From Candidatus Poribacteria bacterium (GTDB lineage Bacteria; Poribacteria; WGA-4E; WGA-3G): a stretch of 64,000 nt of DNA. The first letter of the stretch is position 1. Each line of letters opens with the position of its first letter. Position numbers and translations under genes: made by a program. The DNA is taken from contig OZ244048.1 in the NCBI GenBank assembly GCA_965215265.1, forward strand, positions 4,352,001 through 4,416,000. Direction: 5' to 3'. Shown piece by piece: positions 11,240 through 61,618 of the stretch. The notes under the pieces were generated by a model, which was given only the letters and a program-made list of their open reading frames with translations, was not told the DNA's origin and ran no database searches.

Positions 11240-13180
11240 TTAAAATAGAAAGCGATACATCGGCTTATCAAGCGCAACCGCCAAGAGGCTCCAGAAAGCG
11301 CCGATCACAAATTCACCGAGTACAATGCCGAGAAAGAACGGAATCGCTTTACGGTGTAAACGGAGTCCACCGTACTTGAGTACGAACCATTTAAGGAGCC
11401 AGCCGACAAAGATGGAGCCTACCATCGGATTGATTGCCCAACTGCCTGAGATGGCATAGCCGACGGGATGTAGGTTCCACCAGAGAAACCGCATACGCAT
11501 TGCAGCAAGCAGTAGCGTTAACCCGAATCCGAATGTTGCGAAGCCGATGGCGGGGACATCCGGGGGTGCCGCGTACGTGAGCCATGTTTCTAATCGATTA
11601 AAGGATTCTCGTCCGAATCCGGCGAAACCGCCTTCGGCGTAATACATAGAAAGATATGCCCAAAAGGAACCTAGCGCGCCTAAGGCGGAAGCCAGCATCA
11701 TGAGGAGTGCGAACCGCTTTAATGGGATATTCGCGCCCTCTGCGAGTTTGAATCCTTCTAGTTGATGCGGCATCGCATGCGAACGGTGTGCCCTATTCAG
11801 ACAATAGAGATAGGCGAAGCCGGTTAAGTTTACCGCTCCAAGGCGGCGGATCCCGAATAAGCGCGGTAACATTTCATCTGGGCCGATAAAGTGGAGGTCA
11901 TGTACCGGAGATCCGAGCTCTGCCCGCAGCCGTGCGATCGCAATCGCGATGGCGAACCAGATTAGAAAATAGAGCACAATCACCCAAAACGTCATACCCA
12001 TTTTGAGACAGAAAGCGACGATGAACGCTGCCCCGCCAAGGAGGGCGACGAGTGTGACGCGGTGGGAAACCGGTTCGTCTGGGTGCGGGGACACTACCTG
12101 GCGCACGACCTGCATTAGGTAACGCCGGCTCATCCAGATGGCCAAAACGCAAAGGCCCAAGTAAGCACCATGGGACTGTTCGGCTTCATAAGGAAATCGG
12201 GGTAAACCCCGCCACCCGGCTATCACACCCAGCAGCCGTTCTGCACGCCAAATTAACCAGAATGCCCAACACGAGAAGGAGAGATCAAGTGGAATAAAGA
12301 ACGAAAGCCCCACACCGAAAGGGAACACTCCGAGAGGACTCCACCCGATGCCGTTCCACGGTCTCTCCGTAAAAATCTGCCGCAAATCGTATAGCTTGCC
12401 ACCGAGACTTGGGACAACCGGGAACAGAAAGTTTAGCCCGTTGATGATGTCAATAGAGATGCCAATTGTGAATCCTACCCACATCCACGGTGAACGGAAA
12501 AATCTCGCACGAGACGCGGTCATTTCAAAGGGGAGTTGGATGATCGGGTAACTGAGACGCTCTGACTCTACCCACTGCTTCCGGAAAATTAGACTCAAGC
12601 AGAGCATCACGAGATGAACTGCGACAATGAAGAGCGTCCACCAAAAGATCGCGGGCAACCAGGCAATTAAGTTCGGCTGTTCATAAATGCTTGAAAACCC
12701 GTGATAATAGCCTTCAAGCGCACGTCTATTGCTCACCGCTAACCATTGCGGAATGTGCAGATGAAATAGGTTTATCCAATCATTTTCCGGGGTAGCGAAC
12801 CAGTGCGCGTGCCCGATAATCGGCATTAAAACCAAAAATCTATCGACACCGGCGAGCCCTGCACCGACTGAAATGCAGGTGTAGATGACGAGCAATTCAG
12901 CGCGGTTGAAGGTGAGATGATGATGCAACCGGCGAAAAAGCAGCCCAAAACCGAATAGAATTAAAATCGTGATAACGGCGTTGTAAAATAGGGAGACTTG
13001 CGTTGGGCTTCCACCACCACGGATAATCGAGGCAGATACCCACCAACAGTTCAACGGCACTAAGAGACAGATAAGGAGGATCGCGAATGGCCGAATGCGT
13101 AGGATTTTTCTTTGAACCTTGTTCACCTTCTTTCCAAAGAATAACGAACGTATTCTATCACATTTTTGATCCTGAGACAA
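11240..13180 (-). CDS. Multi-pass membrane protein, DUF6785/DUF6784-like; start uncertain
   Basis: Paralog of 16..2037 (FATPENDW, RKQWVESERLSYPIIQLP). Confidence 0.7.
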   Translation of the reverse strand: MSQDQKCDRIRSLFFGKKVNKVQRKILRIRPFAILLICLLVPLNCWWVSASIIRGGGSPTQVSLFYNAVITILILFGFGLLFRRLHHHLTFNRAELLVIYTCISVGAGLAGVDRFLVLMPIIGHAHWFATPENDWINLFHLHIPQWLAVSNRRALEGYYHGFSSIYEQPNLIAWLPAIFWWTLFIVAVHLVMLCLSLIFRKQWVESERLSYPIIQLPFEMTASRARFFRSPWMWVGFTIGISIDIINGLNFLFPVVPSLGGKLYDLRQIFTERPWNGIGWSPLGVFPFGVGLSFFIPLDLSFSCWAFWLIWRAERLLGVIAGWRGLPRFPYEAEQSHGAYLGLCVLAIWMSRRYLMQVVRQVVSPHPDEPVSHRVTLVALLGGAAFIVAFCLKMGMTFWVIVLYFLIWFAIAIAIARLRAELGSPVHDLHFIGPDEMLPRLFGIRRLGAVNLTGFAYLYCLNRAHRSHAMPHQLEGFKLAEGANIPLKRFALLMMLASALGALGSFWAYLSMYYAEGGFAGFGRESFNRLETWLTYAAPPDVPAIGFATFGFGLTLLLAAMRMRFLWWNLHPVGYAISGSWAINPMVGSIFVGWLLKWFVLKYGGLRLHRKAIPFFLGIVLGEFVIGAFWSLLAVALDKPMYRFLF

Positions 13181-13220
13181 CAGTTTTTTTTGTCTCTCAA
13201 TTCCATCTGATAAGGAGAGT

Positions 13221-14078
13221 TGCGTTGATACAATCTAAAATGCTTTTTTTTCGTGAAAACGGCTTATCTGGCGACGGCTTGTGTTTTGCTCCAAAGTCTC
13301 CAATTCACGAAAAGTTTCACGAGAGGTTTTCATGAGCGTAGACTACCACTGCGTTCATACAATACAAAACCCATTTCTTTCGTGAAACGGCTCATATCGC
13401 AACTTCCTTTGTTTTGCTCCAAAGTCTCCAATTCACGAAAAGTTTCACGAGGGATTTTCGTGAGCGTAGACTACCACTGCGTTCAGAAGATTCGACATGC
13501 GTTTTTTCGTGAAACAGGCTTATCTGGCAGTTTCCTCTGTTTTGGTTGGTGGTATGCAATTCACGAAAAGTTTCACGAGGGATTTTCGTGAGCGTAGACT
13601 ACCACTGCGTTCAGAAGATTCGACATGCGTTTTTTCGTGAAACAGGCTTATCTGGTAGTTTCCTCTGTTTTGGTTGGTGGTATGCAATTCACGAAAAGTT
13701 TCACGAGAGGTTTTCGTGAGCGTAGACTACCACTGCGTTCATAAAATCCAAAGCCGTTTCTTTCGTGAAAACGACTTATCTGGCAGCTTCAGATGTTTTG
13801 CTCCAGAGTCTCCAATTCACGAAAAGTTTCACGAGAGGTTTTCATGAGCGTAGACTACCACTGCGTTCATACGATACAGAATCCGTTCCTTTCGTGAAAC
13901 GGCTCATATCGCAACTTCCTTTGTTTTGCTCCAGAGTCTCCAATTCACGAAAAGTTTCACGAGAGGTTTTCGTGAGCGTAGACTACCACTGCGTTCATAA
14001 ATACAAAGCCGTTTCTTTCGTGAAAACGGGTTATCTGGCAGCTGCCTCTGTTTGACTACAAACTATCCAATTCACGAA
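13221..14078. repeat. 128-bp-period non-coding tandem array (six full units plus flanking partials)
   Basis: GCGTAGACTACCACTGCGTTCA starts at 13336, 13464, 13592, 13720, 13848 and 13976; detached partial unit near 14235-14292. Confidence 0.95.
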
Positions 14079-14199
14079 TGGAGGCGGTTATCGCCGAAGC
14101 AGCTTCGGCCCCAAAGTCGTCGCCACTTCGCGCAGACGCGTTTGAAATAAATCTTGATATCCTTATCTATCTGCTTAGGCTCTTAACTTCTCATGATAA

Positions 14200-14229
14200 A
14201 GTATAGCAGCGTCTCTGCTTTTTTGTCAA
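14200..14229 (-). promoter_or_regulatory. Sigma70-like promoter facing the 128-bp array
   Basis: TTGACA-N18-TATACT on the minus strand. Confidence 0.5.
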
Positions 14230-14324
14230 CGTCTTTTTTCGTGAAAACGGCTCATATCGTAACTTCAGATGTTTGGCTCCAAACCGCAATTCTGGTGGGT
14301 TGCTATAATATAGAGCGTGGTGCT

Positions 14325-17300
14325 TCATACTGTCATCCCTGCGTCGCGATACGTCTGTTCTATGAGTTGAATTTCTTGCGGCGTTAACTCATATAACTGA
14401 TAGACTAAGGTATCTATCTCTTTCTCAAGTGCGTTCACGGCATCGCCGTTGGGTTCTGCCAATATCTGCGCGACGAGGCGTGAGAGTGCGGCTTTCTGTG
14501 CTTCTGTTCTATTGGCTATCGGGACATGTCGCATGTATTGAGCAATGAAACGCAAGCCACCACCTATCCACGGATCGTTAAGGCTCTGAAACTTATATTT
14601 GGCATACCAATCAAAAAGTTGGCTGTTCAAAATTGCAAGCAAAGAGAGATCCTCAGTAGGTAAGATGTAGGTAGTCTGTAAGGAAAAAGCGTTTGCGGTA
14701 TCATAACACGCACGCATAGATGAGCTAATATCCGGATAGATGATCTTCGGCTTTTCGAACGCGTCGTAATAGGCGCACGAACGCAACTCCCAATAGAATT
14801 TTCCCTGGTTATCACGGGGTAAAAGCCGCTCTTTATAGCGTATTAGATGGCGATGGATTGCTGGATAGGTTTTTTCAAAAATCTGTTCGGCTTCAGATTC
14901 GCTTGCTGCGTTTGACCAGGGCCACTGTTTATTGGCACTGCTGGCTATTGCTATCAAGTGCTCGTTTGCTGATACCGCTTTCCATTTTTTGAGATTCCGC
15001 CCTCGCAGTAAAGGTTTTATGAGTTGTGCGCTTTTGGCATCCTCTGCTATTAGCTGCTGACAGAGAGATTCATCTATGATAAATGCTTCATTGTATCCGG
15101 TGAAGATACCAATATAAAGTTGACCTTGTATTGATTCGCTGAATGATGTTCCCGTGTGTTGCAATTTCTGTAGTAGGGCGAGTGTTTCTGTGCGTGCTAA
15201 CGTCCATTCTTCTGAAGACAAATAGGCGAGCTGCATCGGGAATGCCTGCGTTTGAAATGCTTTCCGGACGTTAAATTCCTTTGAAACATGCCTTAGGGTT
15301 GTCGCATGGAGGGTGTGGTTTGGAGTAGGTGGCGACTTTTGAACGAGGAGAATGGATGCATTTACTGCTGCGTCAAAGACGGAAAGGCTGCCGAAATCCA
15401 AAATTGTTTTTAGTGCCATCTCAGCGGTTAGGAATTGGCGTAGTTTTTTTCCGTAGCCGCTGCGCATAAACTTGTTTGTGCAGATGTAGGAGAGTAAACC
15501 ACCTTCTCGTAGTAGTTCGGCTCCGCGTTTGTAGAAGTAGACGCTGATGTCTGCCATGCCCGTAAAGAAATCACCAAATTGTGTTTTCAAGGTAGGTTTG
15601 AGATGGTGAATTTTGTGGTGTCGGATGTAGGGTGGATTGCCGATGACGATGTGAAAGCCGTGGTGGATGCCGAACATCCATGCGGGTTCAAAGAAATCGG
15701 CGACGGCGTTCTGGTTGTATGGATTCCAGTCTGCGATTTTCTGTGCCTCTTCTACGCTGGCTGTTAGCTTTTGCTGACGAATTGCATACGCTTTCTCGAG
15801 TTTTTCTTGGAGTTGGTTGCGCGCCTCCTTTTTTGGCAGCTGCGCAATCTGTTGGGATATCCGGCTTTGCTCCTGCACCGTCCACTGTTCCGACTGTGTT
15901 CTTAGCGCGAGTGCCAATTTTTCACGGCACTTTTCCTCTTTTCGCATCGCCTCAAGTTTTTGCCGACGGGTGCTGCCGGAGAAGTGTTTGGCGCGGATGA
16001 CTTCAATGTCGTTGCGGAGTTGTTGGATGGTGTCTGTTTCCAGCAAGCGCTGAAAATCCGTTTCTTTTGCCCCCTTCAAGCCGATGAGGGTGTTTGCGGC
16101 AACGAACTTCGTCTCCAAGTTGGGGAGGGGTCTGATGCCGTAGTTGTCGTCAGGGTTCTGGTTGGGTATCTGCTCGATGATGAGAGAGATGAAAAAACGG
16201 AGTTTGGCTATTGTGACGGCGATGGGTTGTATATCTATGCCGTAGAGGGAGTTTTGGATGAGGTAGAGTTTGCGTCCGTAGTCGTTGTAGTGATTCGCCT
16301 TGGAGAAAACTGCCTCAATTGCCTGCTTTGCGCTTTCTCGGCTTTGGACGTCTGGTATGTTCTCAGCTTGTTGAAGTTGTCGCTGTTTCCAGTTTTGATT
16401 CTGCGGATCGAGTTTTCGGAGGATGAGCACGAGTTTATTGAGGATGCCCATAGCGAAAGCCCCGGAGCCGACGGCTGGATCTATGACTTTGAGTTCGTTT
16501 ATCGCCTGAATGAGGGGTTGAATTTCCTCTGGATGAATGAGGTGATGTGCGTCTTCATCAATGTTGCCTTGGGAATCGTAAGCGAGGAGGTCTTCGCGGA
16601 GGCGTTCCTCAAGGTATTGTGTGTCGCCGTCGTAGGGTTTGACGTTTTGGATGAGATAGGCGCTGAGTGCCTCGTCTACCATGTGTTCAACGATTTGGCG
16701 GGGTGTGTAGTAAGAGCCTGTGGCTTTGCGTGCGGTGGATTGCGTTTCAGGGTTATAGGTGCCGAGCAGGTTTTCAAACACTTGTCCGAGGAGCTCTGGA
16801 TCGAGCGCGACTTCTTGTTCAATGGGTGTGTTTTCCTCGACAGTAAACTTATAGTGAGCGAAGAGAGGAAAGAGTCCGTGTGTTTCGTCAAAGAAGAGTT
16901 TTGCGGGGACGTGTAATTTTTGCCGAACCGTTTTGTTATCAGAGAAACAGTCTATTCGGACACCGCCGTCGCCGGTTGCCTCAAAGGTATCCAAGCAGTC
17001 AAATAAGCCGCCGTTGACAAATGGGACGTGCTTTAGGTGTTGAAGGAAGGTTTGGGGTGATTGCAGCAAGTCAGCATAGCGATATTTGCTTGAATCGCGA
17101 TGGCTCCTGTTATCGTGTGTGCTAAAGGTGCGTTGATTTATGGGTGTGTTGAGAGTAGCAAAGAATAGATTTTGGAGGATGGCTTGGTAGTAGTCGGATG
17201 TGTCGGGGTTAAAGTTTTTGAGGTGTGCGTGCAGGCTGTTTTCTGTCGTGGCGTTCGGCAGAAGACTTAACGTCTGTAAGGGGGGGGGTATTCAGACTGT

Positions 17301-18232
17301 TGGTTGTTTTGCAGGCTTACCTGCCTATTCTGTTCAGATTCTTCAGACAGCTCGTTGTTTTGCGTGCCCGCCTGCTCTTTCTGCTCGGAATCTTCAAAAA
17401 GCCACTCGGGGACAAGCCCTTTTTCTTTCAAGAACCATATAAAGAGCAGCCGCGTGATGAGCCGGATGATGTGTGCTTCGGAACCCAACGGATTCAGCTC
17501 GGCTGTCGGGAACTTCGCTTCCCTCACTGCCCACTCGAACCAGTTGAACAACCTTCCGTAGAACTGCTTGTTGAGCGCTTCGGTGTTGAGTTTCGCTAGC
17601 CAGGCGGATAGCAGCCCCTCGAAGTTTTTCTGTTTCTTATTTGCGTCAATCCACTTCACGCATTCTGTTAGTGACAGCTCAGAGAGGATATCCAGATGCG
17701 CACGGTGCGGCGCCTCAAGACGAATATCCTTGATGAGTGTCACTTGCTGGAGAACATCGCGCCCTGGGTGGTGCGCGTGTGGACGGCGTCCCACAAAACC
17801 GAGGGTTAGCCGGGTTGACACACGAAATAACACCACCGTCGGAACAATCAGACGCTTGTTGATTTCTCGCGTCAATTCTGCGTACGCACCGCGGGAGTAG
17901 GTTTTCTCTTTTAGTTCTACCGCGAAGAAAAAGAAACTTTCCGCATCGTTTCCTTCAAAGAGTTCTAACCGCTGTTGCGTTTCGCCATCTATTTCTGCGT
18001 CTGTGAGTTGGAAGATGAAGTGTATCGAGGCTGCGTGGTTTCGGAGGGCTTGTTCTGTTTGGGTGTTTCGGTTGAATGCGGGGAAAGTCTCTATAAAGTC
18101 GCCGGCTGTTCCAGAGAATGCTTCTGTCAAATCGCTGCGGTAGCCGAGCGTGGCGAGCAGGTTTTTCGCAGTTTGTAAAAAGGGGCCAGTGCATATTGCA
18201 GCGAGAGCCTCTCTGATGTGTTCTTTGTTCAT
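14325..18232 (-). CDS. Type IIG (Eco57I/TaqI-like) fused restriction-modification enzyme, frameshifted at a C9 tract (17280-17288)
   Basis: IDPAVGSGAF, IGNPPY, C-terminal specificity domain; the downstream frame is open from 17279 (SDYYQAILQNLFFATLN) and joins the upstream ORF with 10 or 7 C. Confidence 0.85.
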
Positions 18233-18709
18233 GCGTTTGCTCCTCTGGGGCCATGCGGTTGAGGGACGAGGCTGGGCTTTGTGAGTTTATTGTGCATGCG
18301 GTTGTCTCCTCTGATAAGCAGGTTTTCAACATTGTCAGGCAGATTTTTATGGTGTTCACATTAATATATCATATTTTAAAAAAAATTGTAAGAGAAATGT
18401 GGGGCATCTGATTTAGCGGCACTTTTTTTGTGAGTTGCGGGTGGGGGCGATGGCGGAGTCTGTGTATGAGAAAAGCTATGAGTCCGCGCGGCGCAAGAGA
18501 GCTGCGAAAAAGGCGACGCGAACCCTCGGACAACGAGGAGCCGGAGGTCGCAGCAACAGAAACACAAAAAACTTCAGTTTCATCTCTTCCAAGCCGTTCA
18601 AGCGCTAAAAAAGGCGAATTTGGTCACGACATGTAAAAATTCATAGAAATGCAACAATTCTGTCAAAAAAGTAAAAAAGTTTCGGTTTAGGTTAAACTAA
18701 ACATATTTG

Positions 18710-18737
18710 TTGACAAATTCACGCGAAGCCGTATAAT
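18710..18737 (+). promoter_or_regulatory. Sigma70 promoter
   Basis: TTGACA-N16-TATAAT. Confidence 0.6.
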
Positions 18738-18869
18738 TAAAGTTACCGACCAAGGGTGTCAGTTTCTTTTTGGGCGAGGGCCGATATTCTTTTTATTCAA
18801 ACACCGGAACGGAGATTTTTGTCGTGTCCTGACGGCAGGCTCCCGATCATCACAAAGGTCTCAAAAACG

Positions 18870-20483
18870 ATGCCTCTGAGCAATAGAAAAAAAATTGTTA
18901 TAATCAGTCTAATCGCATTTATTGGAATTATTATTTTGCTGTCTATTATTTATCATCGTACGTCGCTTTGGAAACCGGAGCAGCAGCTTATCACGCTACT
19001 CCCAGAAAATCCTGTGGGTTATGTGAGTTTCAAAGAAGTTGAAGGGTTCGTCCAAACGTTTACCGGCAGCGAATTCGGGCAGCAGATGTCAGAAATTCCG
19101 CTTATTGCTAAAATTAAGACGCAACTTTGGTGGAGGCAGCTCGTCGATCAGAAGCAGCTATGGGAATATGAGATGGGTGGCAAGCTCGACCTCCAAGCAG
19201 TGAAGGCATATTTCGGCGAAGAAACCATTCTCGCGCTGTACCGACGCGACGAAGAAATTACATTCCTCTTGATTAGCGCGCTCGGCGCGACGGAGAAATT
19301 GGCTATTGAAGCGATGACGGCGACTGACGCGATTAACCCGAAATACAGACGCACCCGAACCGAACACGCGGGTTTCACAATTAATACAATTACGGGGTAC
19401 CCGCGTGATTTTAGCTACGCCTTTATCGGAAAAATCGGCATTTTGAGCCTCAGTTACCCCTTGCTCACGGAGGTGCTTGATATCTACATGGGCAAAAAAC
19501 AGCATTTCCTTCAGCAGCATCCGATGCAGGAAACTATTCAGAGAGACTATGGTCGTGACAAGAGTACTGTTTACATGGATATTCCACGCCTACTCACCTC
19601 ATTTGTCAAGACGAACGAACGTTTGCTGCATTTTGTTGAACAAGTTCATCCGCTATTGGGTAAAACGGAATTCTGGACTTTGGGGAACCGGTATGAGGAT
19701 GGCATAATTCTGTCACGTCATCGTGTTCGCAATCAGACAAAGGAAGGCGCAAATGTCAGTACGTTCCCTCAGCTGCATCCGGGTATCAGTGCACTTCTCC
19801 CGGAAAGAACTGCCTTGGTCACCGCTGTTCCACTCTCATCTCAGATAGAGACGTTTGTTCCCAATCTTGATTTATCCGAGTACTTAGGTGCGGAATTGGT
19901 GCTCGGGTTAATCGCCGCGGAAGCAGAGCAGCTGTCCGTTGTGCCTTCGGTCATTCTGCTGGCTCCTGTTAAAGCCGCGGGGGGGTTGAGAGCCGAATTG
20001 GAAAACCTGAAGGCGCGAAAAATCTCTATTGCGGGGCAACCGCTTCAATTCCTCGCGCCGCAGGACTACCGGGGTACGCGCCTCCATCCGTTCCAACTGC
20101 GCTTTAATTTTTTGTTGGCACTCACAGGAGGCTATGCTGTTGTCAAGGATTACCTTGTGTTCAGCACCACGCTCGCTAGTTTGAAATCTGTGGTGGATGC
20201 GAGCTTAGCGCCAACTCCGACATTAACCGATGCGGTGCTTAACACGAAGGCCGGTTCGATGCAGACTTTTGTTCAGCCGCATCTCTTTGTTCCGGAATTG
20301 AAGCGATTTTTGGTGATGGTTACGTTGCTGACCTCGCTATCCGGTCAGGATTCGGATGCTGAACTGATTGAGCAGTTCCAAGAGAATCTGTTTCCGCTGG
20401 AGGCGCTCGGTCCAATTTCTGCTGAGGTGCGGCGCACGGAGGACGGTGTGGATATCGAATTTCGGATTGTTTTGGAAGAGTAA
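18870..20483 (+). CDS. Membrane-anchored hypothetical protein (DUF3352-like)
   Basis: N-terminal TM after RKK; long ORF; GYAVVKDYLVFST motif. Confidence 0.6.
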   Translation: MPLSNRKKIVIISLIAFIGIIILLSIIYHRTSLWKPEQQLITLLPENPVGYVSFKEVEGFVQTFTGSEFGQQMSEIPLIAKIKTQLWWRQLVDQKQLWEYEMGGKLDLQAVKAYFGEETILALYRRDEEITFLLISALGATEKLAIEAMTATDAINPKYRRTRTEHAGFTINTITGYPRDFSYAFIGKIGILSLSYPLLTEVLDIYMGKKQHFLQQHPMQETIQRDYGRDKSTVYMDIPRLLTSFVKTNERLLHFVEQVHPLLGKTEFWTLGNRYEDGIILSRHRVRNQTKEGANVSTFPQLHPGISALLPERTALVTAVPLSSQIETFVPNLDLSEYLGAELVLGLIAAEAEQLSVVPSVILLAPVKAAGGLRAELENLKARKISIAGQPLQFLAPQDYRGTRLHPFQLRFNFLLALTGGYAVVKDYLVFSTTLASLKSVVDASLAPTPTLTDAVLNTKAGSMQTFVQPHLFVPELKRFLVMVTLLTSLSGQDSDAELIEQFQENLFPLEALGPISAEVRRTEDGVDIEFRIVLEE

Positions 20484-52963: not shown

Positions 52964-53220
52964 TTTTTTGTATATTTCAGCCCAATAAAGGCTGCTGCTA
53001 TTTACAACCCTGTGAAAATCTCGCTAGAGCCGCTTTATGCTATGCCTAAGGAATCTCCGATTTTTTGTATATGTTAGCCCAATAAAGGCTGCTGCTATTT
53101 ACAACCCTGTGAAAATCTCGCTAGAGCCGCTTTATGCTATGCCTAAGGAATTTCAGACGAGATTTACACACGATTAAACAAAATCATAAGCGTTGACGGT
53201 ACGGAGATATACAAAAAAAA
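52964..53220. mobile_element. Two tandem type B copies plus an inverted type A copy
   Basis: Duplicated AGCCCAATAAAGGCTGCTGCTATTTACAACCCTGTGAAAATCTCGCTAGAG; ends GGAGATATACAAAAAAAA. Confidence 0.8.
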
Positions 53221-61231: not shown

Positions 61232-61270
61232 CTATGTTTTCTCGCGCTGTAGCTTGTAGGCAGCTGCGTT

Positions 61271-61618
61271 CTTTTATATATCTCCGTACCATTAACGCTT
61301 CTGCTTTGATGGCTCGTGTATAAATCTCGTCGGAGGCTCCTGATGTTTAGATTCAATCTTTTATATATCTCCGTACCATTAACGCTTCTGCTTTGATGGC
61401 TCGTGTGTAAATCTCGTCGGAGGCTCCTGATGTTTAGATTCAATCTTTTATATATCTCCGTACCATCAACGCTTCTGCTTTGATGGCTCGTGTATAAATC
61501 TCGTCGGAGGCTCCTGATGTTTAGATTCAATCTTTTATATATCTTCGTACCATCAACGCTTCTACTTTGATGGCTCGTGTATAAATCTCGTCGGAGGCTC
61601 CTGATGTTTAGATTCAAT
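61271..61618 (-). repeat. 4x head-to-tail tandem of the 87-nt type A element
   Basis: Exact 87-nt period with few substitutions. Confidence 0.95.

What the first reader, a model, noticed from the sequence alone, without database searches (positions are those of the whole stretch)
13221..14295. 128-bp-period array with conserved and variable blocks, with a leader-like promoter, next to a type IIG R-M gene
Seen: six full units at exactly 128-nt spacing, which is not a multiple of 3. Each has a near-invariant ~57-nt block (CAATTCACGAAAAGTTTCACGAGRGRTTTTCRTGAGCGTAGACTACCACTGCGTTCA), a ~19-nt variable block, TTTCGTGAAA and a ~42-nt variable block. Length changes in one variable block are offset in the other. 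Each unit has up to four TCACGA/TCGTGA words as inverted pairs that could loop out the variable blocks. TTGACA-18-TATACT at 14229-14200 points into the array and a detached partial unit lies just upstream. No cas genes are present. Inference: a processed RNA array, a phased protein-binding array, or a cluster of methylation sites tied to the adjacent R-M enzyme that could control the downstream DUF6785 gene.
Basis: partly seen in the sequence, partly recalled or inferred. Interest (0 to 1): 0.75.

Follow-up and report, generated by a model that had tools for sequence, protein, structure and literature searches.

The report
Tandem palindromic repeat beside multi-copy restriction gene
The 128-base array is real, but it is a tandemly amplified local version of a small palindromic repeat scattered through this sponge symbiont's genome and its relatives, carried on the tail of a six-copy restriction-enzyme gene cassette, not a CRISPR-like or dedicated control array.

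Summary
The array is confirmed: 6.7 units, period 128, a near-invariant 57-nt block and two variable blocks. It is not a stand-alone locus.

- The unit occurs at 13 places in this 4.83-Mb genome, four of them arrays.
- Its ~90-nt palindromic core has diverged, never-tandem homologues in 17 of 60 other genomes of the same family. That family is Poribacteria, judged.
- Window 13202 to about 18860 is a 5.6-kb insertion compared with the only other species of the genus searched.
- The insertion holds the array, a gutted multi-copy gene and a split MmeI/PglX-like gene. The gene segment is present in six copies, each with units at the same end.
- The "leader promoter" is the gutted gene's own promoter.
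- The variable blocks are homologous variants, not spacers. They have no phage or plasmid match.

Best reading (confidence 0.6): a lineage-specific intergenic mosaic repeat, like BIMEs or NIMEs, amplified by unequal recombination and spread with the cassette.

An RNA role, protein binding or methylation could not be tested, because no RNA runs were listed.

Side finding: an 8-9 base poly-C tract splits all six enzyme genes.

The parts
13202..18860 (.). Whole inserted segment compared with the same-genus genome G001: array, gutted gene, split enzyme gene and upstream mosaic. The right edge is approximate.
   Evidence: In G001 the DUF6785 orthologue and the 575-aa gene orthologue are adjacent and divergent, about 97 bp apart. 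Collinearity with the window ends at 13201 and resumes near 18885.
13221..13301 (+). Leading partial unit (profile positions 49-128). Bases 13221-13243 may be native sequence carrying the old -10 box of the 575-aa gene.
   Evidence: nhmmer hit.
13302..14068 (+). Six full units: five of 128 nt and one of 127 nt. Each has a 57-nt conserved block, variable block 1, a TCGTGAAA core and variable block 2.
14069..14078 (+). First 10 nt of a seventh unit, cut off by the gutted gene.
14079..14233 (-). Remnant of a multi-copy hypothetical gene. Its 3' end (14092-14164) is joined to its 5' end with RBS and promoter (14161-14239). About 640 bp are deleted internally and the start codon reads ATA.
   Evidence: The two halves match about 20 genome places in pairs roughly 710 bp apart. 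A full copy encodes a 274-aa reading frame (stop to stop). Relatives are lineage-restricted hypothetical proteins with no Pfam or NCBIfam family.
14200..14229 (-). TTGACA-18-TATACT promoter-like site, which is the gutted gene family's own promoter.
   Evidence: The same sequence lies upstream of the full-length copies.
14234..14283 (+). Trailing partial unit (profile positions 68-122), contiguous with the enzyme gene's 3' flank.
   Evidence: In two copies without the remnant (C1 2339k, 3874k) the unit is whole at this place.
14325..17069 (-). ORF2 of the split MmeI/PglX-like type IIG enzyme, covering the methyltransferase and target-recognition parts.
   Evidence: Pfam Eco57I 7e-37, TaqI_C 1.1e-11, N6_Mtase, weak MmeI_Mtase. 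NCBIfam PglX models match below their cut-offs. PDB adenine methyltransferases match at 1e-20.
17267..18232 (-). ORF1 of the same enzyme (N-terminal part). It carries D-X9-E-X-K, read by eye.
   Evidence: 60% identical to residues 20-307 of the intact 1185-aa G001 homologue. No Pfam or PDB match.
17280..17288 (-). Poly-C tract (9 C on the coding strand) exactly at the ORF1/ORF2 frame switch.
   Evidence: In all six copies a run of 7 or 10 gives one ORF of 1221-1315 aa and the assembled 8 or 9 splits it. Short-read contigs show 9 and 8.
17291..17396 (-). 51-bp (17-aa) tandem repeat in the linker beside the poly-C tract. The segment is absent from the G001 homologue.
18404..18602 (.). Ragged upstream edge of the six-copy segment. 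All six copies share sequence up to about 18404, four share about 100 nt more, and two about 200 nt more.
13152..13180 (-). Native promoter-like site of the DUF6785 gene (TTGTCT-17-TAGAAT), about 20 nt from the insertion edge.
   Evidence: It lies within the stretch collinear with G001.
18710..18737 (+). Consensus promoter module TTGACA-17-TATAAT in front of the 575-aa gene, inside a 44-nt stretch repeated elsewhere in the genome.
   Evidence: (18698-18741 is 100% identical to C1:3214281-3214324).

Best explanation
The array is a tandem amplification of a non-coding palindromic intergenic repeat. It is not a CRISPR-like, sRNA-gene or dedicated regulatory array. The ancestral element is a dispersed palindrome of about 90 nt found in several genera of this family. 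It has two direct copies and one inverted copy of a TTCACGGAGG-type decamer. In this species the element gained a 41-nt linker, giving the 128-nt unit. A unit came to lie just 3' of an MmeI/PglX-like gene and was then copied with that gene to six places. Shown: the dispersal, the insertion, the six copies, the mosaic gene structure and one recent gene-conversion tract. Inferred: the number of units changes by unequal homologous recombination between the invariant 57-nt blocks, and gene conversion among units produces the mosaic variable blocks. Also inferred: any effect on neighbouring genes is a by-product, for example blocking read-through from the enzyme gene or the relic promoter, or supplying homology for recombination.
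For: - Dispersal: nhmmer gives 33 hits at 13 loci in the genome. Arrays have 6, 3, 3 and 2 units, and there are single or partial copies elsewhere.
- Mosaic joins: the first 36 nt of the unit are joined to a different conserved module at four places. Outer flanks are made of other repeat families.
- Older family: the sequence-only profile R1 finds near-full-length matches in 17 of 60 other same-family genomes, up to 16 per genome and none adjacent to another. All 40 fetched matches were re-found by nhmmer and 38 look convincing.
- Covariation: the only structure conserved across 37 aligned sequences is the decamer/inverted-decamer stem, with G-C changed to A-U on both sides in 6 sequences.
- Insertion: this locus and the C1 4202k locus interrupt gene pairs that are adjacent in G001.
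- Six-copy segment at 91-97% identity with units at the same end.
- Recombination is active: the gene copies are mosaics. A 1723-bp tract with no differences links the window copy (14186-15908) to the 437k copy against about 5% divergence, and it ends in the repeat flank.
- The genome is rich in other non-coding tandem repeat families.
- No Rfam match, no phage or plasmid match, no promoter-like site per unit.
Against: - The 57-nt block is far better conserved than the rest of the unit, and 13 of 14 array units are exactly 128 nt long despite three indel columns. Both point to a constraint that neutral recombination does not obviously explain.
- Terminator-like hairpins are enriched: 10 found against 1.8 expected, nine of them on the minus strand.
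- Twelve of 13 loci have the unit's minus sense downstream of a co-directional gene. That is 6 of 7 loci without the enzyme gene, and one of those neighbours is only a gene fragment. This could mean an RNA-level role.
- No transposase or autonomous parent element was found, and no Y1/RAYT gene is present, so how the solitary copies spread is unknown.
- No clean empty site or target duplication could be resolved.
- Unit-number variation between samples could not be read from short-read contigs.
Confidence: 0.6

Rival explanations
1. Recombination scaffold, as proposed for NIMEs. The array and the conserved 5' half of the gene bracket the target-recognition part of six paralogous enzyme genes. 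They supply the homology for swapping recognition-domain cassettes among copies, which diversifies restriction specificity.
For: The gene copies are mosaics with at least three alleles of the 3' recognition part and two of a central segment. One 1723-bp identical tract covers exactly the 3' gene part and ends 139 nt past the stop codon in the repeat flank. Cassette copies lie at synteny breakpoints compared with G001. In Neisseria, repeat arrays are reported to mark the ends of recombination fragments (PMC1797815, passages read).
Against: Only one of the 11 long identical tracts (250 bp or more) found among the 15 copy pairs ends in the repeat flank, and the rest are internal to the gene. That end lies in the gutted gene remnant, not in a unit. 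Two copies carry just one unit. Units also occur at seven loci without the gene.
Confidence: 0.15
2. A cis-acting RNA element on the minus strand. The array would be a stack of weak terminator or stabiliser hairpins in the 3' untranslated region of the enzyme gene, insulating the downstream gene from read-through, much as REP elements act in enterobacteria.
For: Ten terminator-like sites are found against 1.8 expected, eight of them minus-strand sites inside units. Orientation fits in 12 of 13 loci. Three stem variants give G-U on the minus strand where the plus strand would have A-C (my reading). In five of six cassettes the next gene is co-directional.
Against: The hairpins are short and their T runs weak. 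The plus strand folds more stably in 13 of 17 units. Homologues in other genomes have an A run, not a T run, after the inverted decamer (my reading), and only 6 of 9 follow the orientation rule. There is no RNA evidence either way.
Confidence: 0.12
3. A phased binding or methylation array. The four TTCACGA words per unit would be sites for a DNA-binding protein or for the adjacent enzyme, and their occupancy or methylation would control neighbouring genes.
For: The word-bearing block is the conserved part. In relatives two words lie 11 nt apart as direct repeats. Unit length is kept at 128 nt.
Against: TTCACGAAA is not clearly enriched outside the repeats: 63 occurrences against a permuted-word median of 35.5 and a range of 12-75. 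No DNA-binding gene travels with the cassette. All six enzyme genes are split in the assembly. The repeat family occurs in genomes and at loci without the enzyme. At 10.5 bp per turn, 128 bp is about 12.2 helical turns, so successive units are not in phase.
Confidence: 0.06
4. A processed guide-RNA or sRNA array, CRISPR-like or like the NsiR1 tandem sRNA genes, with the variable blocks acting as targeting sequences.
For: Conserved and variable blocks alternate, and a promoter-like site points into the array.
Against: The variable blocks are homologous to each other and shared between arrays. They match no phage, plasmid, GTDB-representative or JGI metagenome sequence apart from one chance 20-mer. 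The promoter is a relic of another gene. No promoter-like site per unit, no Rfam family, no cas-like neighbour.
Confidence: 0.03

Closest known systems
BIMEs / REP clusters of enterobacteria and pseudomonads (BIME-2 type tandem clusters; features recalled, not read here)
   Same: Short imperfect palindromes are dispersed in intergenic DNA, combined with linkers into mosaic units and repeated in tandem in variable number. They are mostly downstream of genes and are lineage-specific.
   Different: No Y1/RAYT transposase is present in the genome. The unit is longer, at 128 nt. It has two direct words and two inverted words rather than alternating inverted REPs. The sequence is unrelated.
Neisserial intergenic mosaic elements (NIMEs: dRS3 inverted repeats flanking RS elements; PMC1797815, passages read)
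   Same: Arrays alternate a conserved inverted-repeat-bearing element with more variable segments. Arrays differ in unit number between loci. They lie beside genes that recombine, and other elements insert into the arrays.
   Different: Here the variable segments are diverged versions of one sequence, not over 100 unrelated RS families. The period is strictly 128 nt. No dRS3 sequence is present. Only one recombination endpoint was seen near an array. The paper states that NIME arrays had not been observed outside Neisseria.
MITEs / foldback elements such as Correia elements (features recalled; Correia elements are mentioned in PMC1797815)
   Same: A small non-coding element has terminal inverted repeats of 9-11 bp that co-vary between lineages. 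It is present in many copies in several genomes and in intergenic positions.
   Different: No target-site duplication or empty site could be resolved. No parent transposase was found. Tandem head-to-tail arrays are not typical of MITEs.
Phase-variable type IIG / type III restriction-modification genes with homopolymer tracts (Campylobacter, Helicobacter, Neisseria; recalled). This applies to the neighbouring gene, not the array.
   Same: An Eco57I/MmeI-like gene is interrupted by a homopolymer tract whose length sets the reading frame.
   Different: There are six dispersed, recombining copies in one genome and all are out of frame in the assembly. Switching has not been observed.

Membership tests
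CRISPR array | Short direct repeats separated by unrelated spacers of foreign origin | tested here: not met
   The variable blocks align with each other and recur between arrays. No phage or plasmid match.
CRISPR array | Adjacent cas genes or a leader belonging to the array | tested here: not met
   No cas domain in the 8 neighbouring proteins. The 'leader' promoter belongs to a gutted multi-copy gene. Two arrays that look like CRISPR by their repeat-spacer pattern, with different repeats, lie elsewhere in the genome.
REP/BIME with RAYT | Dispersed intergenic imperfect palindromes forming mosaic tandem clusters | tested here: met
   13 loci and four arrays, with mosaic joins to other modules.
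REP/BIME with RAYT | A REP-associated Y1 transposase in the genome | tested here: not met
   PF01797 gives 0 matches in the genome (95% complete) while 6 of 14 control genomes match.
NIME | Conserved short inverted-repeat element alternating with variable segments in arrays | tested here: inconclusive
   The alternation is present, but the variable segments are homologous variants and the dRS3 consensus is absent. The definition is taken from PMC1797815.
NIME | Association with recombination in flanking genes | tested here: inconclusive
   One 1723-bp conversion tract ends in the repeat flank, and the other tracts are internal.
MITE | Terminal inverted repeats and many dispersed copies | tested here: met
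   The decamer and inverted-decamer ends co-vary across genomes. 17 of 60 genomes hold copies.
MITE | Target-site duplication and an empty site in a relative | tested here: inconclusive
   At C1 1932k the intergenic gap is 486 bp against 140 bp in G001, but it is too diverged to place the edges. Two other loci lie at synteny breaks or lack a match on one flank.
MITE | A related autonomous element with a transposase | tested here: not met
   BLAST and nhmmer of the unit find only the short copies.
Tandem sRNA gene array (NsiR1/LhrC type; features recalled) | Each unit has its own promoter and terminator and yields a discrete RNA | tested here: inconclusive
   No promoter-like site per unit, but weak terminator-like hairpins on the minus strand. 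RNA could not be tested because no RNA run was listed.
Known RNA families (Rfam 15) | Match to a covariance model | tested here: not met
   Only chance-level hits, none inside the array units (the nearest, 15 bits at 13200-13247, touches only the leading partial unit) and none near a gathering score.
Type IIG (MmeI/Eco57I-like) restriction-modification enzyme (the neighbouring gene) | Eco57I-type gamma-class N6-adenine methyltransferase with a TaqI_C-type recognition domain | tested here: met
   Pfam Eco57I 7e-37, TaqI_C 1.1e-11, N6_Mtase 2e-10.
Type IIG (MmeI/Eco57I-like) restriction-modification enzyme (the neighbouring gene) | N-terminal nuclease fused in one polypeptide | tested here: not met
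   The gene is split into 321-aa and 914-aa ORFs in all six copies. The D-X9-E-X-K motif was seen by eye only, and the motif definition is recalled. ORF1 has no Pfam or PDB match. The G001 homologues are single ORFs of 1185-1200 aa.

The most novel reading that the evidence does not exclude
The six dispersed enzyme cassettes would form a combinatorial defence system. Each gene would be switched on or off by its poly-C tract. The 128-nt arrays, together with the conserved 5' gene half, would act as NIME-like recombination scaffolds that move recognition-domain cassettes between copies. The conserved 57-nt block and the fixed 128-nt length would be kept by selection for that role or for binding an unknown protein.
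Probability: 0.12. Interest if true: 0.6.

Novelty: new member of a known kind. Interest (0 to 1): 0.3.

Why it matters
This removes a false lead. A tidy array with conserved and variable blocks and an apparent leader turns out to be a repeat family that hitch-hikes on a duplicated gene cassette.

It also documents an undescribed palindromic repeat family shared by several Poribacteria genera. Three library searches (listings only) turned up no title or abstract that describes one. It shows how such repeats and a six-copy restriction gene family coincide with insertions, gene conversion and synteny breaks in a sponge symbiont genome.

The more interesting thread lies beside the finding. Six recombining type IIG-like genes are all interrupted by a frame-setting poly-C tract. 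This would be a testable case of multi-copy, possibly phase-variable restriction in an uncultured symbiont.

Tried and rejected
- RNA evidence: no RNA holder was listed for the stretch.
- Unit-number variation: short-read contigs of four runs from four studies break at the repeats, so it could not be read. They do show the left junction (12800-13275) in all four.
- Exact 20-mer scans: none in the GTDB representatives. One hit in JGI metagenomes shares only the 20-mer and is a chance match.
- The BLAST-type search of 40 relatives found nothing. This was superseded by the profile search.
- Rfam: nothing.
- RAYT/IS200: absent.
- I first took the gutted gene for an Rpn/YhgA-like nuclease from memory. 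Pfam, NCBIfam and the homologue search do not support that. A true YhgA-like gene does lie next to two unit fragments at C1 2997k, which I did not pursue.
Rejected by eye, with no formal test.
- Coding potential: two plus-strand frames are open through a unit and the third closes at TGA. The 112-aa and 96-aa ORFs are by-products (and my reading).
- RNA structure: alifold on the genome's own units gives different weak folds on each strand with almost no covariation. Across genomes only the terminal stem survives.
- Empty-site mapping of solitary units against G001 gave no clean edges.
- Tandem arrays next to homologues of the enzyme gene: none. Periods 102/204/306 in L035 and L037 look like coding tetratricopeptide-type repeats by eye.

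Full report
**Observation.** TRF finds one array at window 13221-14078 with period 128, 6.7 copies and 85% matches. Units start at 13302, 13430, 13558, 13686, 13814 and 13942, and a cut-off seventh unit starts at 14069. The 57-nt block is almost invariant. Across 17 full units in the genome, 42 of 57 block columns never vary, against 4 of 20 in variable block 1 and 11 of 42 in variable block 2. The two variable blocks measure 22+42 or 21+43 nt in five window units and 20+43 in the 127-nt unit. The promoter-like TTGACA-18-TATACT at 14229-14200 is there, as is the detached partial unit at 14234-14283.

**The unit is a dispersed repeat.** The window lies at C1:4352001-4416000 of a single-contig 4.83-Mb genome. 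BLAST, a pattern scan and an nhmmer profile find 33 hits at 13 loci.
- Arrays have 6 units (here), 3 (C1 437k), 3 (4202k) and 2 (1720k). There are one and a half units at 4438k.
- Single or partial copies lie at 1010k, 1344k, 1932k, 2339k, 2669k, 2984k, 2997k and 3874k.
- At four places the first 36 nt of the unit continue into a different conserved module.
- Outer flanks of two arrays are built from other repeat families.
- The genome is rich in non-coding tandem repeats. These include an abundant family of about 61 nt, to which the window's other two arrays (52964-53151 and 61270-61618) belong by their consensus sequences, and two arrays that look like CRISPR by their repeat-spacer pattern.

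**The 'leader' is a relic of another gene.** Window 14092-14164 and 14161-14239 each match about 20 genome places. The matches come in pairs about 710 bp apart.
- They are the 3' and 5' ends of a multi-copy gene. One full copy has a 274-aa reading frame (stop to stop).
- Its relatives are lineage-restricted hypothetical proteins of 300-400 aa, with no Pfam or NCBIfam family.
- In the window about 640 bp are missing and the start codon reads ATA.
- The remnant replaces profile positions 11-67 of one unit.
- The same gutted copy sits in the four arrays. The two loci without it (2339k, 3874k) have one whole unit there.
- So the promoter is that gene family's own promoter, not an array leader.

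**The array is the tail of an inserted, six-copy cassette.** Window 14230 to about 18500 recurs at five other places at 91-97% identity, one of them with its 3' part replaced. Each copy has the unit at the same end.
- The segment holds a 321-aa ORF and a 914-aa ORF. Together they align with residues 20-307 and 321-1182 of an intact 1185-aa homologue in the same-genus genome G001.
- The 914-aa ORF has Eco57I, TaqI_C and N6_Mtase domains and resembles PglX-type and solved adenine methyltransferases.
- In G001 the orthologues of the DUF6785 gene (92% identical) and of the 575-aa gene are adjacent and divergent, about 97 bp apart.
- Collinearity with the window ends at 13201 and resumes near 18885. 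About 5.6 kb, array included, is therefore an insertion.
- The DUF6785 core promoter (13180-13152) lies in the collinear part.
- The 4202k cassette likewise splits two genes that are neighbours in G001.
- The upstream flank of the 437k cassette and the array-side flank of the 3874k cassette are contiguous in G001. Cassettes therefore lie at synteny breaks.
- The upstream edge of the repeated segment is ragged, which does not look like a transposon end.

**The link with the enzyme gene does not extend beyond this genome.** The closest homologues of the gene are in Candidatus Poribacteria assemblies, at up to 63% identity. None of the 9 loci found has a unit-like array or a convincing profile hit. 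G001 has three tandem intact copies with no array.

**The core of the unit is older and widespread.** A BLAST-type search found nothing in 40 relatives. A sequence-only profile of 19 units (A1, R1) then found near-full-length matches in 17 of 60 other same-family genomes.
- By genus the counts are 14 of 27 in one, 2 of 27 in another, and one weak hit in G001.
- There are up to 16 matches per genome, and no two are adjacent.
- I fetched 40 matches and nhmmer re-found all of them. I set aside two as poor (L116, L117).
- Their consensus is TTCACGGAGG, C, TTCACGGAGG, about 55 nt, then CTCCGTGAAAAA. That is two direct decamers and one inverted decamer.
- I aligned 37 sequences: 7 from this genome and 30 from relatives. 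I left out 8 near-duplicate same-genome copies. RNAalifold keeps only the decamer/inverted-decamer stem, with both-sided G-C to A-U changes in 6 sequences.
- The interior has no conserved fold. Within this genome the two strands give different weak folds.
- The tandem 128-nt form was seen only in this genome among those searched.

**What I infer.** The element behaves like the intergenic mosaic repeats known from other bacteria. No Y1/RAYT transposase is present, no autonomous parent was found, and no clean empty site could be resolved. How single copies spread is therefore open.

Recombination among the large copies is directly visible. The six genes are mosaics. The window and 437k copies share a 1723-bp tract (window 14186-15908) with no differences, against about 5% divergence on both sides. 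It ends 139 nt past the stop codon in the repeat flank. Unit types are shared between arrays in partly the same order. From this I infer that unit number changes by unequal recombination in the invariant blocks, and that gene conversion makes the mosaic variable blocks.

**What argues for more than selfish DNA.**
- The conserved block is far better kept than the rest of the unit.
- The unit length of 128 nt is kept in 13 of 14 array units.
- Minus-strand terminator-like hairpins are enriched, 10 against 1.8 expected.
- Orientation: 12 of 13 loci have the minus sense downstream of a co-directional gene. That is 6 of 7 outside the cassettes, one beside a gene fragment only.
- In relatives the orientation rule holds in 6 of 9 loci, and no T run follows the stem (my reading).
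- TTCACGAAA is not clearly enriched outside the repeats.
- No RNA run was available and contigs cannot show unit numbers.

**Comparison with known systems.** The closest are BIME-2 type REP clusters, NIMEs (PMC1797815, passages read) and MITE/foldback elements. See the membership table. It fails the CRISPR tests, and it shows no promoter-like site per unit as a tandem sRNA array would need. Earlier notes of this scan described other species-specific repeat families in the same genome as BIME- or MITE-like. None covered this family. Three literature searches gave no title or abstract describing such repeats in Poribacteria (listings only).

**Verdict.** The array is a new member of a known kind, a lineage-specific palindromic mosaic repeat in tandem form, riding on a multi-copy restriction gene cassette. 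Interest is modest. The poly-C-split, recombining six-copy enzyme family beside it is the more promising lead.

Noticed in passing
window 17280-17288 (and the five other copies in C1): A poly-C tract sits exactly at the frame switch between the 321-aa and 914-aa ORFs. It is 9 nt long in three copies and 8 nt in three. A run of 7 or 10 would give one ORF of 1221-1315 aa in every copy. Short-read contigs also show 9 and 8. This could be phase variation, but all six copies are out of frame.
   Followed up: partly
window 14186-15908 versus C1:437k copy: A 1723-bp tract with no differences lies in a background of about 5% divergence. This is a recent gene conversion covering the recognition-domain part of the enzyme gene. 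The six copies are mosaics with at least three 3' alleles.
   Followed up: partly
L046 (G001:C1:2304000-2321000): The same-genus genome has three tandem, intact 1185-1200-aa homologues of the enzyme gene, 97-98% identical to each other. They lack the poly-C linker insert and have no repeat array.
   Followed up: partly
C1 437k and 3874k cassette flanks: The upstream flank of one cassette and the array-side flank of another are contiguous in G001 (2055387 | 2055345). Cassette copies therefore mark genome rearrangement breakpoints.
   Followed up: partly
window 52964-53151 and 61270-61618: Two more non-coding tandem arrays (periods 97 and 87). By their consensus sequences they belong to an abundant hairpin repeat family of about 61 nt with dozens of arrays genome-wide. 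Earlier notes e1-1459510/11 describe a family of about 60 bases that may be the same one.
   Followed up: no
window 18710-18737: A consensus TTGACA-17-TATAAT promoter module lies in front of the 575-aa gene, inside a 44-nt stretch identical to C1:3214281-3214324. The gene's native promoter region was displaced by the insertion.
   Followed up: partly
C1, about 20 places such as 1733397-1734193: A multi-copy, lineage-restricted hypothetical gene has C-terminal 72-nt repeats and lies next to genes with 66-nt tandem repeats that look like leucine-rich repeats by eye. Its function is unknown.
   Followed up: partly
array units genome-wide: Unit length is exactly 128 nt in 13 of 14 array units, although the alignment has three indel columns. 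Each length change is offset elsewhere in the same unit. This is unexplained.
   Followed up: partly
window 11240-13180 and relatives: The DUF6785/DUF6784 protein family has 15-33 matches per genome (counted as matches, not gene copies) in the five relatives searched.
   Followed up: no
C1:2997360-2998448: A true YhgA-like (Transposase_31) gene lies just upstream of two fragments of the unit. A possible link between this nuclease family and the repeat was not examined.
   Followed up: no
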